Position numbers and translations under genes: made by a program. DNA of 64,000 nt. Source: Bacteroidia bacterium (GTDB lineage Bacteria > Bacteroidota > Bacteroidia > NS11-12g > UBA955). The DNA is taken from the NCBI GenBank assembly GCA_965655465.1, contig CBFHGY010000002.1, positions 9,982 through 73,981 of the forward strand, read 5' to 3'. Position 1 is the first letter of the stretch. Each line of letters opens with the position of its first letter. This document shows, one piece after another, positions 1-12,562 of this stretch. A model generated the notes under the pieces. The model was not told the origin of the DNA. It did no database searches and saw nothing but the letters and a program-made list of their open reading frames with translations.

Positions 1-355
1 GCGAACGGTAAACATCAATTCGGTGGCGGCGCAAAGTGGTATTGCCTCTTTGCCAACGCTGTTCTGTTTCGCGGATTGAATTTCTTAAATCTCGAAAACT
101 GTTTGAAATGGTTCCGCTGCAAATATGCCCTAATACCAGAGGCAAGCTATTCCCAAAAAAGCGGTTCAGACTCCCATCGGTTTGGGCTTGAGAATCATAA
201 AACTGAATTTGTTTGGAAAGGTGTAAGATAGAAGAAAAGATTTCCTCTTTAGAAGGAACGGGAACGATACCTTGCGGTTTTTTTAGTCGGATGTGCTGGG
301 CATCGCCATCGGCAAGGTCTAAGTCAAAGCGCGTATCATTGCGGTTCCAAGGCAT
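1..355 (-). CDS. Baseplate component, N-terminal part only (gene continues past the left edge); gp6/Afp11-like by position
   Basis: The reverse-strand ATG at 355..353 lies 5 nt after the gp25-like stop. My hand translation of the reverse complement (MPWNRNDTRFDLDLADGDAQHIRLKKPQGIVPVPSKEE...) stays open for 118 codons to position 1. The product is assigned only from gene order after PAAR/gp25; I recognised no motif. Confidence 0.45.
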   Translation of the reverse strand, partial: MPWNRNDTRFDLDLADGDAQHIRLKKPQGIVPVPSKEEIFSSILHLSKQIQFYDSQAQTDGSLNRFFGNSLPLVLGHICSGTISNSFRDLRNSIRETEQRWQRGNTTLRRHRIDVYRS

Positions 356-360
356 GGTTA

Positions 361-777
361 TCAGTACTGGTTGGCTTCTTTAATGTAGAAGGGATACACA
401 TAGTTACCCCTTGTATTGGTATTGCGAATGGTAAAGGCCACATCGATATTAATGAGCCCTTTTTCGGCTTGAAGTTCGAAATTAACGGAATCTACAATAA
501 TCATGGTTTGAAACTGCATTAATCCTTGGGTGATTTTTTCTTCTAAGGCTTTGAACGTAGCCGAATCTTGAGTTTCAAATAGCAATTCAGATAAATCGAT
601 ACCAAAATCTTTATGATACAATCGTTCTCCCGGCTTAGTCGACAAAATGGCCCGAATGCTCTGTTCAATATTGTCGATGCCGCTTACCAAACCGGTTTTA
701 CCCGTAGAAGGATTGATTTTAAATGGCTGTTTCAATCCTATTCCGAAAAAGGCTTTATTTTTTTGATCTGGGCTCAT
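361..777 (-). CDS. Baseplate wedge protein, GPW/gp25 family (Afp9-like)
   Basis: The ORF is 361..801. It has a gp25-type pattern: AFFGIGLKQPF...IEQSIRAILSTKPGERLYHKDFGIDL. I place the start at the second Met (ATG 777..775) because tcat at 774..777 forms an ATGA stop/start overlap with the PAAR gene. Confidence 0.8.
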   Translation of the reverse strand: MSPDQKNKAFFGIGLKQPFKINPSTGKTGLVSGIDNIEQSIRAILSTKPGERLYHKDFGIDLSELLFETQDSATFKALEEKITQGLMQFQTMIIVDSVNFELQAEKGLINIDVAFTIRNTNTRGNYVYPFYIKEANQY

Positions 778-1073
778 CCTCCAATTAAAACGGTGGGACA
801 AAGACTCATAACTTTTCCTCCGTGAGCGGTGGGGTCACCGAGTCTCGCAGCAGGCTTTCCGCCTATTTTTACGGTTGACGACCCTTTTGAAATCACATCA
901 GGGGGACCTACGCAGATGCACATATCCCCAACAACGGCAGCCGGAAGTCCACCGATTAAGACGGTTGGGGCGCCTGGACCTACAATGGGTCCGCCCACAT
1001 GAGGAATCGGCACCAATGCGGGAGTTTGCATAGGGCACGTATGGAGATCAGTTATTCGAGCAGCTGGAGGCAT
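774..1073 (-). CDS. PAAR-repeat spike tip protein (Afp10-like)
   Basis: The protein is 99 aa and Gly/Pro-rich. It has three PAAR-type repeats (PAARITD, LPAAVVGD, KPAARLGD) plus conserved His/Cys, and lies directly downstream of VgrG. Confidence 0.85.
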   Translation of the reverse strand: MPPAARITDLHTCPMQTPALVPIPHVGGPIVGPGAPTVLIGGLPAAVVGDMCICVGPPDVISKGSSTVKIGGKPAARLGDPTAHGGKVMSLCPTVLIGG

Positions 1074-1078
1074 AATAG

Positions 1079-10099: not shown

Positions 10100-10224
10100 G
10101 CATCCCCGATGGGACTTGAAGTTTTCCACAAAGATTTGATCGGATATCGAGGAATCGGTGTTCAGTCCTTTCTTTTGTGATTCAGTAAAATTGCACGCAA
10201 TACCCTGAATAAAAACAAACTACT

Positions 10225-12084
10225 ATGGCTTTAACTGCAGAATTAAAAAAACAGGATACAAGCACACCACCTGCGAATACGGCCACCAACTCTGGTCCTG
10301 CATCTGGTGCGCAAACCACTTTGCCTGCCAATCAAGGTGCGAGTGTGGCTGGAAATTCCTCAGGTACCCCGGCACAAACGACTACGGTCCCAGCAAAACC
10401 AGCAGGACCTTCAGTTGCCGGTAGTGCGATGGCAATGGTTGGGGGCGCTCGTATGGCAGCAAGTGCCAAGAAAACAGTTGCCGATAGAACGGCTAAAAGC
10501 CAAACAATGACGGGTGCCGCCGTGGATATCAGTGCAGGTCGTGACGACAGTGATGACGAATCGGTGGGCGATCAGGCAAAAGGAGTTGTAGATGACGCTT
10601 TTGGGGTTATAGGAGATGCAAAGGATGAGTTTGAAGACGGTTATAAAGCCGTTAACGAAGCTCAAGGTAAAGAGGAAGACGATTTGTCTGAAACCGTACA
10701 AAAAGACATGAAAGGTCTTGCAGTGGCTGCAAGTGTTATGGGTACCGTTTCAGGTATAAAGGCAATGTCTGATTCTTTAACCACCTTAATGGATCCCAAT
10801 AAAGAGTTTTTAGATAAAATAGAGGCGGGTTTTGAAATGGGAGAAGGCATTGCTGGAACGGTAGGTGCAGCATCTGATTTTACCAATGAAGTGGCTGCTG
10901 AAGGTTCTAAAGTTGCTTCAGATTCGGAAGCAGTGAGTGCATGGTCGGGCAGTGTAGGGGATGCTATCGGAGCAATCAAAACAGGGTTCTTAACGGTAAA
11001 ACAATTGGTAACCACCATAAAAGAACGGAATGATAGTAGTAAGAGAGAAAAAGCTCTTGAAGGCTTGGGAATTGCGCAAGGCTTTGTAGAAACGGGGAAA
11101 TCGGTTTTAACTGTAATAAATGGAGTAAAAGAAGCCTTAGACGGTGGTACTTTCGGTGGAGTTGCTGCCGCGATTCCTGGATTAGACATTGCACTTTCGG
11201 GTATTGCTATAATCAAGGAGGGATTTTATCTGGTAGTATCTTATCGCGATTATAAGCAGATGATTGCAGAGAACGAATCGAAAGAAAAGGATCCTGGGTC
11301 AGTGGTAAAAGAAAAGTCTGAGGAACTTAGAAAATACGATGCTACCATTTCAAATTATAAAGTAGCGATTACAGAAGATGAGGAAAAATCTGCCATTCTG
11401 GAAGAAAAAATAAAAACGGCATCCGATGAAACAGGATTTTTTAAATCCACTTCAGATAAACAAAATCTGATCAATGAGAAGATTAAATTAGATGCTAATA
11501 TTCTTAGAATGAAGAATCAGACTGCAGCGGTTGCCGTTCAAAAAAATGATCTCGAAGCGGCAAATCCGGATGTCCTAGAATACGCAATGGTGGGCGAAAT
11601 CGCGGAAGCCAACAAAAAGAGAATCGTAAGAAATTCCATTTTATTGGTTGCGGAATTTGCAAATCTAGCCGGGTCTATTGCCAATTTAACGGGTGTAGGA
11701 GCTATAGCAGGCGCTAGTTTGAAAACAGCTTCAGCCTCGGTGAAGGTGGCATTGCCTGCTGCTCGCGCTGCGAAACAAGCAGGTCGAGATCGACATGCCG
11801 GTAAAGAGGCTCGGGGAGAATCTGATGTGATGACCAGCGGTTTTGATGCCAGTAAATCCACCGCAGCAAAAAGAGATTATCGCATGAAACAGGTGAATAC
11901 CCTCCTACAACAAATTCAAAATTTGAAAACATTGAAAGGAGCGGCATTTGATTCAAGAGCCAAACAATTAGAAATGTATATCTCAGCTATGGGAGTGAGT
12001 CCAGGTAAGTTATTTGCTCAGAATGGCAACCAAAAGGAACAAATAACCATGCTTTACAAAGCCTTAATACAAAGAGAAATTTAA
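10225..12084 (+). CDS. Hypothetical 619-aa protein; candidate eCIS payload or tail tape-measure (function unresolved)
   Basis: This is a long ORF directly after the ATPase. Residues 12-57 are A/T/P/S/G/N/Q-rich with no charged residue. An acidic block spans about aa 105-160. Two hydrophobic Gly/Ala-rich segments (aa 309-339 and 469-500) are separated by a charged coiled-coil-like region, and the C-terminus is basic. I saw no catalytic motif and no HExxH. Confidence 0.7.
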   Translation: MALTAELKKQDTSTPPANTATNSGPASGAQTTLPANQGASVAGNSSGTPAQTTTVPAKPAGPSVAGSAMAMVGGARMAASAKKTVADRTAKSQTMTGAAVDISAGRDDSDDESVGDQAKGVVDDAFGVIGDAKDEFEDGYKAVNEAQGKEEDDLSETVQKDMKGLAVAASVMGTVSGIKAMSDSLTTLMDPNKEFLDKIEAGFEMGEGIAGTVGAASDFTNEVAAEGSKVASDSEAVSAWSGSVGDAIGAIKTGFLTVKQLVTTIKERNDSSKREKALEGLGIAQGFVETGKSVLTVINGVKEALDGGTFGGVAAAIPGLDIALSGIAIIKEGFYLVVSYRDYKQMIAENESKEKDPGSVVKEKSEELRKYDATISNYKVAITEDEEKSAILEEKIKTASDETGFFKSTSDKQNLINEKIKLDANILRMKNQTAAVAVQKNDLEAANPDVLEYAMVGEIAEANKKRIVRNSILLVAEFANLAGSIANLTGVGAIAGASLKTASASVKVALPAARAAKQAGRDRHAGKEARGESDVMTSGFDASKSTAAKRDYRMKQVNTLLQQIQNLKTLKGAAFDSRAKQLEMYISAMGVSPGKLFAQNGNQKEQITMLYKALIQREI

Positions 12085-12094
12085 ATTTTCAAAT

Positions 12095-12562
12095 ATGATT
12101 AACGAAGACAATACCTTACAAATTATACAAAACCAAATATTACCATTGGGCTATAAAGCACAATTTATCGAAGAGTTTAATGAGCTTCCCTTTAAAGTAT
12201 TATTGGTTTATCCCTATGAGGAAGACGAAAAACCAGAACTCAAAGATTGGGCCTTGAATTTTACGGTTTTTCCAATGGGAGACGACCTAGACGGATCTGT
12301 TTTTTTGCAGATGTACTGGGAATATAATTTGAAAGTTTCATCTGATAATAGGTCTAAGGTTGCTGAAAAATTGATAGATATCAATTTTCAATTGCCCTTA
12401 GGAAGCCTTGGAATTTCACCGGAAACTGGAAGTATTTATTTCCGCATGGTGATGCCTATTGCGCTGCAAACGGAAATTACTTCCGCTTATATGTCGGATG
12501 TTTTGGATATGGGAATTTATCCGATGGAGACCTTTTTCCCTGAGTTGTCGGCACTTTTGTAA
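12095..12562 (+). CDS. Acidic 155-aa protein, T3SS-chaperone/YbjN-like pattern (candidate chaperone for the upstream protein)
   Basis: The gene starts 10 nt after the 619-aa gene. The protein is strongly acidic (about 24 D/E against 9 K/R by my count). The segment KVAEKLIDINFQLPLGSLGISPETGSIYFRMVMPI resembles the LL..N......g.l.ld.e.g.l.l pattern of CesT/YbjN-type chaperones. This assignment is by eye only. Confidence 0.55.
   Translation: MINEDNTLQIIQNQILPLGYKAQFIEEFNELPFKVLLVYPYEEDEKPELKDWALNFTVFPMGDDLDGSVFLQMYWEYNLKVSSDNRSKVAEKLIDINFQLPLGSLGISPETGSIYFRMVMPIALQTEITSAYMSDVLDMGIYPMETFFPELSALL

What the first reader, a model, noticed from the sequence alone, without database searches (positions are those of the whole stretch)
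1..12562. Phage-tail-like contractile injection system (eCIS / T6SS-iv-like) locus, cut by the left edge
At least twelve consecutive genes encode a contractile-tail machine with no phage head or replication functions. They are: DUF4255 cap, one sheath, two gp19-like tubes, LysM hub protein, VgrG, PAAR, gp25 wedge, the start of another baseplate gene, and an Afp15-like AAA+ ATPase. The ATPase, DUF4255 and PAAR together are the signature of eCIS (Afp/PVC/MAC/AlgoCIS) and Amoebophilus-type T6SS-iv. R-type pyocins and canonical T6SS differ: there is no TssB/C pair, ClpV or TssJLM here. On the right the locus abuts housekeeping lpxB-surE with no integrase or transposase, so it is not obviously mobile on that side. 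The machine family is known; the accessory genes are not assignable and are reported separately. Sequence alone cannot say whether particles are released, membrane-anchored or cytoplasmic.
Basis: partly seen in the sequence, partly recalled or inferred. Interest (0 to 1): 0.8.

Follow-up and report, generated by a model that had tools for sequence, protein, structure and literature searches.

The report
Subtype Ib contractile injection system locus
This is a real but fairly ordinary phage-tail-like injection machine of the AlgoCIS/T6SS-iv type on the chromosome of an uncultured Bacteroidia bacterium, next to its loading ATPase and a likely toxin cargo, with the rest of the machine lying beyond the left edge of the window.

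Summary
Window 1-12562 holds 15 co-oriented or divergent genes of a contractile injection system (CIS).

Twelve lie on the minus strand:
- the start of Cis11 (cut at base 1), gp25, PAAR and VgrG;
- the LysM tube initiator, a 64-aa plug and two gp19 tube proteins;
- one sheath, a cap adaptor, the DUF4255 cap and a conserved 119-aa two-helix membrane protein.

Three lie on the plus strand: an AAA+ ATPase, a 619-aa protein and a 155-aa protein.

Gene order and sizes match AlgoCIS from cap to Cis11. The best solved relatives are AlgoCIS, the Anabaena thylakoid CIS and SalCIS, so the locus belongs to dbeCIS subtype Ib.

In close relatives (sheath 96% identical) the locus continues with Cis11 (about 1200 aa), a Cis13-like protein, Cis12 and a giant ORF (>2177 aa, cut). 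In more distant syntenic loci the complete giant ORF is the tape measure protein (1757-2456 aa), followed by a TPR protein and a membrane GH18 hydrolase. No capsid, portal or terminase appears.

The 619-aa protein is not the tape measure. Its module is fused behind DUF4157/eCIS_core in 26 of 64 family representatives, so it is most likely cargo loaded by the ATPase.

Sequence cannot say whether particles are released or membrane-tethered. Novelty: a new member of a known kind.

The parts
2..355 (-). N-terminal 118 codons of the Cis11/Alg11 baseplate (gp6/baseplate-J-like) gene, cut by the window edge
   Evidence: Open frame starting MPWNRNDTRF. It is 83% identical to the start of the 1205-aa L009 protein. 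The family profile hits SalCis11 (3.5e-34), tCIS Cis11 All3317 (5.5e-32) and AlgoCIS Alg11 (2.3e-30).
361..777 (-). gp25-like sheath initiator (Cis9), 138 aa
   Evidence: GPW_gp25 1.9e-15 and Sheath_initiator 8.6e-10. The ATG at 777 matches the 138-aa gene calls in L001 and L019.
774..1073 (-). PAAR spike tip (Cis10), 99 aa
   Evidence: PAAR_motif 1.4e-27.
1079..2842 (-). VgrG-like spike (Cis8), 587 aa
   Evidence: Phage_base_V 2.4e-21 and Phage_GPD 4.5e-4. The length matches Alg8, 581 aa.
2846..3583 (-). Tube initiator with C-terminal LysM domain (Cis7), 245 aa
   Evidence: CIS_tube 1.8e-25. Weak LysM hit on residues 189-243, 4.6e-4.
3595..3789 (-). Spike plug (Cis6/Alg6-like), 64 aa (the ORF is open to 3804)
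   Evidence: No Pfam hit. The family profile hits the 50-aa Anabaena tCIS chain Asl3322 (E = 0.048), sharing the motif EIxxLVIKAS; that chain's identity as Cis6 is my inference and was not verified (no mention in the tCIS paper). The gene has the same position and size as Alg6. It has the strand-linker-helix layout described for Alg6.
3814..4353 (-). Tube adaptor (Cis5-like), 179 aa
   Evidence: Phage_T4_gp19 1.6e-21. TIGR02241 6.2e-16 and CIS5_fam 3.3e-6. Assigned by its position after Cis1, as in AlgoCIS.
4365..4796 (-). Inner tube protein (Cis1-like), 143 aa
   Evidence: Phage_T4_gp19 1.6e-41. TIGR02241 6.5e-35.
4839..6707 (-). Single sheath protein (Cis2), 622 aa
   Evidence: Phage_sheath_1C 5.5e-16. 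PDB hits: AlgoCIS Alg2 2.6e-133, tCIS All3325 1.4e-117, SalCis2 3.2e-116, Pvc/Afp sheaths 1e-67 to 1e-38.
6766..7596 (-). Cap adaptor (Cis16B/Alg16B-like), 276 aa
   Evidence: No Pfam hit. The family profile hits AlgoCIS Alg16B at E = 0.0094. The AF2 model is low-confidence, yet its two best Foldseek hits in the whole PDB are tCIS Cis16B (2.4e-4) and AlgoCIS Alg16B (1.5e-3). It lies between cap and sheath, as in AlgoCIS.
7593..8159 (-). Short tail-terminator cap (Cis16A, DUF4255), 188 aa
   Evidence: Pvc16_N 2.2e-22. It is single-domain in length, like Alg16A (197 aa), not like Afp16 or Pvc16 (about 295 aa).
8165..8524 (-). Conserved 119-aa membrane protein, first gene of the structural operon; role unknown
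   Evidence: Two predicted TM helices, about 56-78 and 91-113. It is 61-95% identical and in the same position in 8 related loci. No family hit.
8525..8776 (.). Divergent intergenic region between the structural operon and the ATPase module
   Evidence: 252 bp between the two divergent start codons. The promoter scan is not informative for Bacteroidota.
8777..10099 (+). AAA+ ATPase (Cis15/Alg15-like), 440 aa
   Evidence: AAA 9.3e-27. Walker A at 243 and Walker B ILFFDE at 297. The size matches Alg15, 435 aa.
10225..12084 (+). Probable cargo/effector, 619 aa: disordered N-terminus followed by an all-alpha conserved module
   Evidence: No Pfam hit. Its family has 247 cluster representatives, with the module always C-terminal. 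PF13699 eCIS_core (DUF4157) lies N-terminal to the module in 9 of 9 long homologues and in 26 of 64 representatives. AF2 predicts disorder then long helices. No CIS_TMP hit.
12095..12562 (+). 155-aa partner of the cargo gene, weakly YbjN-like; possible chaperone or immunity protein
   Evidence: YbjN 2.4e-4, just under the Pfam cutoff, in 2 of 3 homologues. It always follows the 619-aa gene. No PDB hit.

Best explanation
Window 1-12562 is the right-hand part of a chromosomal contractile injection system of dbeCIS subtype Ib. This is the clade of AlgoCIS, MAC, Amoebophilus T6SS-iv, Anabaena tCIS and SalCIS. The host is an uncultured Bacteroidia bacterium.

Shown: the minus-strand operon encodes the particle from its distal to its proximal end. 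The order is a membrane protein of unknown role, cap Cis16A, cap adaptor Cis16B, a single sheath, tube Cis1, tube adaptor Cis5, plug Cis6, LysM tube initiator Cis7, VgrG spike Cis8, PAAR Cis10, gp25 Cis9 and the start of Cis11.

Inferred from relatives: the operon continues beyond the window edge with the rest of Cis11, a Cis13-like short fibre or connector, Cis12 and a giant ORF, as in the closest relative (L009). In more distant syntenic loci that ORF is complete and is a giant tape measure protein.

Shown: a second unit is transcribed divergently. It encodes the AAA+ ATPase Cis15, a 619-aa protein and a 155-aa protein.

Inferred by analogy with AlgoCIS and PVC: the baseplate nucleates around plug, spike and tube initiators. 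The tube and sheath polymerise along the tape measure, and the cap and adaptor terminate them. The ATPase unfolds and threads cargo into the tube lumen by its disordered N-terminus. Sheath contraction, started at gp25, then drives the tube, spike and cargo into a target.

The 619-aa protein is the most likely cargo. The 155-aa protein is its possible chaperone or immunity partner.
For: All core families hit well above Pfam thresholds.

Gene order and protein lengths reproduce AlgoCIS. AlgoCIS has 16A 197, 16B 284, sheath 692, tube 142, Alg5 147, Alg6 52, Alg7 228, Alg8 581, PAAR 96, gp25 137 and Alg11 1050 aa. The window has 188, 276, 622, 143, 179, 64, 245, 587, 99 and 138 aa, with about 1200 aa for Cis11 in relatives.

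The sheath's best solved relatives are Alg2, then tCIS, then SalCIS, and only then Pvc/Afp.

Subtype Ib hallmarks are present:
- Cap adaptor.
- Plug.
- Long Cis11.
- Cis12 in relatives.
- CIS_TMP at the C-terminus of all six complete giant ORFs.

For the cargo, DUF4157/eCIS_core is fused N-terminal to the p619 module in 26 of 64 family representatives. This is the disordered-NTD, DUF4157, variable-CTD architecture reported for Cgo1/2 and SalCis20. The gene is adjacent to the ATPase shown to load cargo in AlgoCIS. A relative with an 86%-identical sheath carries unrelated proteins in the same slot.

The chromosomal context is conserved in relatives, and the rest of the window is housekeeping.
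Against: - Only 118 codons of Cis11 lie in the window. Cis12, the tape measure and the fibres are inferred from relatives, because the window's own left flank could not be fetched.
- The cap adaptor and plug assignments rest on marginal E-values (0.0094 and 0.048) and a low-confidence model (pLDDT 52).
- The 619-aa protein itself has no DUF4157 domain and no HExxH motif. Its fold matches nothing solved, so no activity is known.
- No expression or particle data exist.
Confidence: 0.9

Rival explanations
1. The genes are the tail module of a prophage or an R-type tailocin, not a dedicated injection system.
For: Sheath, tube, gp25, VgrG and baseplate-J families are shared with myophage tails. The left flank of this exact genome was not seen.
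Against: No capsid, portal, terminase, integrase or lysis genes appear in the 64-kb window, nor in the 13-22 kb continuing the locus in relatives. An AAA+ Cis15, a Cis6 plug, a DUF4255 cap and a cap adaptor are present; phages and R-type bacteriocins are reported to lack Cis6 and Cis15. The locus sits at the same chromosomal site, next to lpxB-surE, in relatives. Phage and pyocin sheaths score only 1e-6 to 1e-7, against 1e-133 for AlgoCIS.
Confidence: 0.02
2. The machine is a cell-anchored, T6SS-iv/SalCIS-like system that fires from the producer's inner membrane, not a released eCIS.
For: In all 8 syntenic loci that reach past the tape measure, it is followed by a TPR protein and a GH18 hydrolase. 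Those hydrolase ORFs that are complete have a signal peptide and three C-terminal TM helices. This is the architecture described for the SalCIS membrane hydrolase SalCis19. A short Cis13-like protein lies between Cis11 and Cis12, as in tCIS. Tape measures of 1757-2456 aa imply very long machines, and SalCIS is also long. A conserved membrane protein heads the operon.
Against: The GH18 gene was seen only in relatives with 36-51% Cis12 identity, not in this genome. It does not hit SalCis19 by sequence; its best hit is YdhD at 4.5e-4. The Cis13-like protein has no TM helix. The closest solved sheath is that of AlgoCIS, which is released. Clade Ib contains both modes.
Confidence: 0.45
3. The 619-aa protein after the ATPase is the tape measure protein, not cargo.
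For: Its size is close to Alg14 (526-537 aa). It is all-alpha and Ala/Gly-rich with a highly conserved C-terminus, as eCIS tape measures are described.
Against: It has no CIS_TMP hit. The giant ORF after Cis12 in relatives carries CIS_TMP at 1e-34 to 1e-43. The p619 module is fused to DUF4157/eCIS_core in 26 of 64 representatives. The slot holds unrelated proteins in a relative with an 86%-identical sheath.
Confidence: 0.07

Closest known systems
AlgoCIS of Algoriphagus machipongonensis (eCIS, subtype Ib; PMC8894135)
   Same: Gene order is identical from cap to Cis11, with near-identical protein sizes. It is the best sheath match (2.6e-133). Both have a single sheath, a short DUF4255 cap plus cap adaptor, an Alg6-type plug, a LysM tube initiator, a long VgrG, a PAAR and a long Cis11. 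Both have an AAA+ ATPase and a cargo with a disordered N-terminus. A TPR protein is associated with the cluster.
   Different: Here the ATPase-cargo unit is divergent, next to the cap end. The cargo lacks the DUF4157 domain. A 119-aa membrane protein heads the operon. In relatives a Cis13-like gene sits between Cis11 and Cis12. No Alg19-type Ig fibre was seen. The tape measure is 3-4.5 times longer than Alg14, and a membrane GH18 hydrolase follows it.
Anabaena thylakoid-anchored CIS (tCIS; PMC8894136)
   Same: It is the second-best sheath match (1.4e-117). It gives the best matches for Cis12 (4.8e-29) and for the plug, via the 50-aa chain Asl3322 (0.048; Cis6 identity inferred, not verified), and the top Foldseek hit for the cap adaptor. 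The order Cis11-Cis13-Cis12 is the same, and the Cis13 N-terminus matches at 0.012.
   Different: No thylakoids are present. The Cis13-like protein here is longer (235 against 154 aa) and has no C-terminal TM helix. No Cis19 crown homologue was identified.
SalCIS of Salmonella enterica subsp. salamae (bioRxiv 10.1101/2025.06.01.657177)
   Same: Both are subtype Ib. It gives the best Cis11 match (3.5e-34). Both have a bidirectional layout with the ATPase upstream of effector genes. SalCIS is a long machine. Relatives of this locus carry a hydrolase with a signal peptide and three TM helices, like SalCis19.
   Different: The effector here has no DUF4157/HEXXH, unlike SalCis20. The GH18 protein gives no direct sequence hit to SalCis19. 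The host is a Bacteroidia bacterium, not an enterobacterium.
Afp/PVC (subtype Ia eCIS)
   Same: The core parts list is the same (Afp1-16 nomenclature), including the AAA+ ATPase, the DUF4255 cap, and a tape measure in relatives.
   Different: There is one sheath gene instead of three. The cap is short and paired with a separate adaptor. Cis11 is much longer. Sheath similarity is far lower, 1e-67 to 1e-38.

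Membership tests
CIS subtype Ib (dbeCIS lineage I; AlgoCIS/MAC/T6SS-iv/tCIS/SalCIS) | Core set of sheath, tube, VgrG, PAAR, gp25, LysM tube initiator and DUF4255 cap in one cluster | tested here: met
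   Pfam hits range from 1e-15 to 1e-41. The LysM hit is weak.
CIS subtype Ib (dbeCIS lineage I; AlgoCIS/MAC/T6SS-iv/tCIS/SalCIS) | A single sheath protein whose closest relatives are Ib sheaths | tested here: met
   There is one sheath ORF. PDB ranking is Alg2 2.6e-133, tCIS 1.4e-117, SalCIS 3.2e-116, then Pvc/Afp at 1e-67 or weaker. No tree with MAC or Amoebophilus was built.
CIS subtype Ib (dbeCIS lineage I; AlgoCIS/MAC/T6SS-iv/tCIS/SalCIS) | Short single-domain cap (Cis16A) plus a separate cap adaptor (Cis16B) | tested here: met
   The cap is 188 aa, Pvc16_N. The 276-aa gene hits Alg16B by profile at 0.0094. Its Foldseek top two hits are Cis16B and Alg16B. The model is low-confidence (pLDDT 52, TM 0.34-0.38).
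CIS subtype Ib (dbeCIS lineage I; AlgoCIS/MAC/T6SS-iv/tCIS/SalCIS) | Small spike plug (Cis6/Alg6) between Cis5 and Cis7 | tested here: inconclusive
   Position, size and strand-linker-helix layout fit. The profile hit to the 50-aa tCIS chain Asl3322 (Cis6 identity inferred, not verified) is only E = 0.048, with the shared motif EIxxLVIKAS.
CIS subtype Ib (dbeCIS lineage I; AlgoCIS/MAC/T6SS-iv/tCIS/SalCIS) | One notably long Cis11 with a cage-forming insertion | tested here: inconclusive
   Only 118 codons lie in the window. Relatives have 1197-1229 aa, and the C-terminal part hits SalCis11, tCIS Cis11 and Alg11. The cage domain itself was not modelled.
CIS subtype Ib (dbeCIS lineage I; AlgoCIS/MAC/T6SS-iv/tCIS/SalCIS) | AAA+ ATPase Cis15 and tape measure Cis14 | tested here: met
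   Cis15 is in the window. Cis14 is seen only in relatives, as CIS_TMP at 1e-34 to 1e-43.
Extracellular CIS (released particles) versus T6SS-iv (anchored) | Particles released to the medium, or baseplate docked to a membrane | not testable with these tools
   This needs EM or cryo-ET. The indirect hints conflict.
Prophage / myophage tail | Adjacent capsid, portal, terminase, replication or integrase genes | tested here: not met
   None appear in the window or in the relatives' continuation. This genome's own left flank was not seen.
Canonical T6SS (i-iii) | TssB/TssC sheath pair, ClpV, TssJLM or the Bacteroidota membrane complex, TssK/F/G | tested here: not met
   No such Pfam family was hit by any ORF scanned. 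The sheath is of the Phage_sheath type.
R-type pyocin / tailocin | No AAA+ ATPase and no plug; a lysis cassette is present | tested here: not met
   AAA+ and plug are present and no holin or endolysin was found. The pyocin sheath scores only 1.9e-7.
DUF4157 (eCIS_core) cargo proteins (Cgo1/2, SalCis20) | Disordered N-terminus, DUF4157/HExxH domain, variable C-terminal domain | tested here: not met
   The 619-aa protein has the disordered N-terminus but no eCIS_core hit and no HExxH. Its C-terminal module is shared with bona fide eCIS_core proteins, 26 of 64. It is therefore related to this group, not a member of it.
SalCIS-like membrane-associated cluster | SalCis19-type membrane hydrolase, trimeric SalCis13 anchor, SalCis20 effector | tested here: inconclusive
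   Relatives have a GH18 protein with a signal peptide and 3 TM helices. It gives no direct hit to SalCis19. SalCis13 and SalCis20 could not be compared or were not found.

The most novel reading that the evidence does not exclude
This Bacteroidia sub-lineage may build an unusually long machine of about 0.4-0.55 micrometres. The length would be set by a 1757-2456-aa tape measure. The machine would be tethered to the inner membrane through a GH18 membrane hydrolase, a Cis13-like connector and perhaps the conserved 119-aa membrane protein. It would inject a new all-alpha, DUF4157-less effector, possibly membrane-active, that is kept in check by a YbjN-like partner.
Probability: 0.2. Interest if true: 0.6.

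Novelty: new member of a known kind. Interest (0 to 1): 0.35.

Why it matters
The locus adds a well-resolved parts list for a clade of subtype Ib injection systems in uncultured Bacteroidia.

It links an uncharacterised protein family of about 250 clusters to CIS cargo, through its fusion with DUF4157.

It also points to three testable features of the sub-lineage: very long tape measures, a conserved small membrane protein, and a membrane GH18 hydrolase. These bear on the open question of what decides whether a clade Ib machine is released or anchored.

For engineering of eCIS delivery platforms, a natural cargo that lacks DUF4157 but keeps a disordered N-terminus is a useful comparison case.

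Tried and rejected
- **Fetching the window's own left flank failed.** Exact look-ups of gp25 (two starts), the sheath and the 276-aa protein found nothing. The 619-aa protein returned only a 4-kb contig. Database entries 100% identical to window proteins list a 78,510-bp NCBI contig as their longest contig; this is probably the window's source (my inference), and it is not in the GTDB representative set.
- **The 619-aa protein as tape measure.** I first took it for the tape measure, from its size, helicity and conserved C-terminus. I rejected this after CIS_TMP was found in the giant ORFs and DUF4157 fusions were found in the p619 family.
- **Foldseek of the 619-aa model.** Nothing was significant; the best E-value was 0.18, on generic long-helix proteins.
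- **The 155-aa protein.** Only a sub-threshold YbjN hit and no PDB hit.
- **Metagenome scan with the L013 giant ORF.** It found nothing.
- **The relatives' GH18 protein.** It did not hit SalCis19 by sequence.
- **Other scans.** Rfam found only a tRNA, and the sigma-70 promoter and terminator scan was at background level.
- **ORF 8682-8993(-).** It overlaps the ATPase start, has no hits and is judged spurious.

Full report
**Observation**

ORF listing and translation show twelve tightly packed minus-strand genes between bases 2 and 8524. Three plus-strand genes lie between 8777 and 12562. Beyond them come lpxB, a small membrane protein and surE.

- GPW_gp25, 1.9e-15.
- PAAR, 1.4e-27.
- Phage_base_V, 2.4e-21, with a weak GPD hit.
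- CIS_tube, 1.8e-25, with a weak C-terminal LysM hit (4.6e-4).
- Two Phage_T4_gp19 proteins, 1.6e-21 and 1.6e-41.
- Phage_sheath_1C, 5.5e-16.
- Pvc16_N (DUF4255), 2.2e-22.
- AAA, 9.3e-27, with intact Walker A and B motifs.

The frame that runs off the left edge encodes 118 residues. They are 83% identical to the N-terminus of a 1205-aa protein in a close relative.

The locus is chromosomal:
- G+C is uniform across the window.
- The remaining 50 kb is Bacteroidota housekeeping: lpxB, surE, gyrB, acyl-CoA carboxylase subunits and the T9SS genes PorP, PorU and PorV.
- There is no integrase, transposase, capsid, portal, terminase or T6SS-specific family.

**Source and relatives**

The sheath has thousands of homologues at about 54% identity in Bacteroidota, including Marinilabiliales, Salinivirgaceae and Prolixibacteraceae MAGs. 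A few are much closer.

The most useful relatives are these:
- L001/L014, Bacteroidia bacterium P_BACT2, with a 98%-identical sheath. Its contig ends inside Cis11.
- L009, Bacteroidia bacterium Co_bin_290, with sheath 96.1% and VgrG 91.7% identical. This is the best proxy for what lies left of the window.
- L019/L020, with a 92%-identical sheath. They have the same neighbours as the window: lpxB, surE, PIN, DUF2281, an outer-membrane barrel and a histidine kinase.

Database entries 100% identical to window proteins list a 78.5-kb NCBI contig, probably the window's source, but it could not be fetched.

**What continues to the left (inferred from relatives)**

In L009, L010, L011, L013 and L017, gp25 is followed by four genes and a giant ORF:
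- A protein of about 1200 aa. Its family profile hits SalCis11 (3.5e-34), tCIS Cis11 (5.5e-32) and AlgoCIS Alg11 (2.3e-30).
- A 235-aa protein, 64-77% conserved. Its first 39 residues hit tCIS Cis13 (E = 0.012) and its middle resembles trimeric fibre proteins.
- A peptide of about 60 aa.
- A protein of about 840 aa that hits tCIS Cis12 (4.8e-29), Alg12 (1e-23) and SalCis12 (1.9e-18).
- A giant ORF that runs off these loci at more than 2150 aa.

A metagenome scan with the Cis12 profile returned loci in which the giant ORF is complete, at 1757-2456 aa. In all six tested, its C-terminal 260-500 residues match PF19268, the CIS tape measure family, at 1e-34 to 1e-43.

In 8 of 8 loci it is followed by a convergent TPR protein and a GH18 protein. 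Those GH18 ORFs that are complete have a signal peptide and three C-terminal TM helices. No head or replication genes appear anywhere in these loci.

**Classification**

The AlgoCIS supplementary table gives the order 16A, 16B, sheath, tube, Alg5, Alg6, Alg7, Alg8, PAAR, gp25, Alg11, with sizes 197, 284, 692, 142, 147, 52, 228, 581, 96, 137 and 1050 aa. The window has the same order, with sizes 188, 276, 622, 143, 179, 64, 245, 587, 99 and 138 aa, and about 1200 aa for Cis11 in relatives.

The sheath's solved relatives rank AlgoCIS, then tCIS, then SalCIS, and far below them Pvc/Afp, then pyocin and T4.

Three features were introduced by the AlgoCIS and tCIS structures as clade-specific. I tested each.

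- **Cap adaptor.** The 276-aa family profile hits Alg16B at E = 0.0094 and tCIS All3326 at 0.74. An AlphaFold2 model from only five sequences is poor (pLDDT 52). Even so, its two best Foldseek hits among 350,542 chains are exactly tCIS Cis16B (2.4e-4) and Alg16B (1.5e-3), and the next hit is at 0.04. With the position between cap and sheath, I accept this assignment.
- **Plug.** The 64-aa family shares the N-terminal strand motif EIxxLVIKAS with Asl3322, a 50-aa chain of the tCIS structure that I take to be Cis6 from its size and gene number (E = 0.048). It has the strand-linker-helix layout of Alg6. This is suggestive but not proven.
- **Long Cis11.** This is met in relatives. The cage domain itself was not modelled.

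dbeCIS defines subtype Ib as the Gram-negative clade that includes Bacteroidetes and Cyanobacteria, with a single, notably longer afp11. I therefore file the locus as subtype Ib.

**The ATPase unit and the cargo question**

The 619-aa protein has four notable properties:
- It has no Pfam hit.
- About 130 residues at its N-terminus are disordered, Ala/Pro/Thr/Ser-rich and variable in length.
- Its body is all-alpha, with five helices of 35-40 residues.
- About 170 residues at its C-terminus are nearly invariant.

I first considered it the tape measure. Three results argue against that.

- **The real tape measure is elsewhere.** A bona fide CIS_TMP protein exists in the syntenic clusters.
- **The slot is variable.** In L005, where the sheath is 86% identical, the slot after the ATPase holds an unrelated 509-aa Gly/Ala-rich protein and a 189-aa protein. 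The p619 profile does not detect them.
- **The family is fused to DUF4157.** A full HMMER search of 1.84 billion representatives finds 247 family members of 400-1170 aa, with the p619 module always at the C-terminal end. PF13699 eCIS_core lies N-terminal to it in 9 of 9 long members and in 26 of 64 members scanned. PF13699 is the former DUF4157.

A disordered N-terminus, then DUF4157, then a variable C-terminal domain is the architecture of the AlgoCIS cargos Cgo1/2 and of SalCis20.

In AlgoCIS the AAA+ Alg15 is required for loading cargo through an N-terminal loading sequence. In SalCIS the ATPase is likewise encoded upstream of the effectors, in a bidirectional layout.

The 619-aa protein is therefore best read as a cargo that has lost, or never had, the DUF4157 domain. 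Its activity is unknown. One hydrophobic Gly/Ala-rich helix (residues 312-330) and further Gly/Ala-rich stretches make a membrane-active role possible. This is speculation, and Foldseek found nothing significant.

The 155-aa protein always follows it and is more conserved. It gives a sub-threshold YbjN hit in 2 of 3 homologues. A chaperone or immunity role is inferred only from its position.

**Mode of action**

Clade Ib now contains five kinds of system:
- released particles (AlgoCIS);
- arrays (MAC);
- cytoplasmic-membrane-anchored bundles (T6SS-iv);
- thylakoid-anchored machines (tCIS);
- an inner-membrane-interacting system (SalCIS).

Several points hint at anchoring:
- The relatives' GH18 hydrolase has the same signal-peptide, periplasmic-hydrolase and three-TM architecture as SalCis19. 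SalCis19 is SleL-like, and the best PDB hit of the GH18 protein here is the Bacillus sporulation-specific glycosylase YdhD.
- A Cis13-like connector is present.
- A conserved two-TM protein heads the operon.
- The tape measures are very long.

Other points weigh against it:
- The closest sheath is that of the released AlgoCIS.
- The Cis13-like protein lacks a TM helix.
- The GH18 gene was not seen in this genome.

I rate the two modes about equally likely.

The AlgoCIS coefficient of 0.229 nm per tape measure residue applied to 1757-2456 residues gives 400-560 nm. This holds only if the whole protein acts as the ruler, which is untested.

**Novelty and score**

CIS loci are already known to be abundant and enriched in Bacteroidota MAGs: 1,129 systems in one survey. 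This is therefore a new member of a known kind.

The less ordinary points are the assignment of the p619 family to CIS cargo, the conserved 119-aa membrane protein, the giant tape measures and the SalCis19-like hydrolase. The last two lie outside the window and rest on relatives. Interest 0.35.

Noticed in passing
L022:12487-17784, L024:12515-17785, L027:12513-19880, L028:12523-18270, L030:2732-9688, L031:12510-19856: The tape measure proteins of this sub-lineage are 1757-2456 aa, 3-4.5 times the length of Alg14. Only the C-terminal 260-500 residues match CIS_TMP. The N-terminal and middle parts are highly divergent between relatives.
   Followed up: partly
L022:17771-18922(-) and L022:18927-20939(+); same pair in L023, L024, L027, L028, L030, L031, L033: A TPR protein and a GH18 hydrolase always follow the tape measure gene. 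Those hydrolase ORFs that are complete have a signal peptide and three C-terminal TM helices. The architecture resembles the SalCIS membrane hydrolase SalCis19.
   Followed up: partly
L005:1005-2534(-) and L005:422-991(+): In a relative with an 86%-identical sheath, the slot after the ATPase holds unrelated 509-aa and 189-aa proteins. Both are rich in Gly/Ala glycine-zipper-like stretches. This suggests an exchangeable cargo slot.
   Followed up: partly
L003:2154-8057: In one relative the ATPase-cargo unit is separated from the structural operon by a glycosyltransferase, gidB and alaS. This makes it a split locus.
   Followed up: no
window 8165-8524 (-): A 119-aa protein with two TM helices is more conserved across relatives (61-95%) than the neighbouring cap adaptor (25-94%). 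It has no known counterpart in the AlgoCIS gene list.
   Followed up: partly
window 14959-15861 (-): A PIN-domain toxin sits next to a DUF2281/DUF6364 antitoxin-like gene beside surE. The pair is conserved in L019/L020.
   Followed up: no
window 46688-54416: A type IX secretion gene group is present: an FGE-sulfatase-domain protein, PorP/SprF, a C25 peptidase (PorU-like, 1133 aa) and PorV.
   Followed up: no
window 34189-37179 (-): A 996-aa ORF has no Pfam hit at E <= 1e-4.
   Followed up: no
window 46035-46108 (+): A tRNA gene (Rfam, 64 bits) overlaps the annotated GTG start of the M1 peptidase ORF 43455-46073. The peptidase therefore probably starts further downstream.
   Followed up: no
window 20836-24410 (-): A 975-aa His_kinase-domain protein and a LytTR response regulator form a two-component pair. 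The pair lies 8 kb from the CIS locus and is conserved next to it in L019/L020.
   Followed up: no
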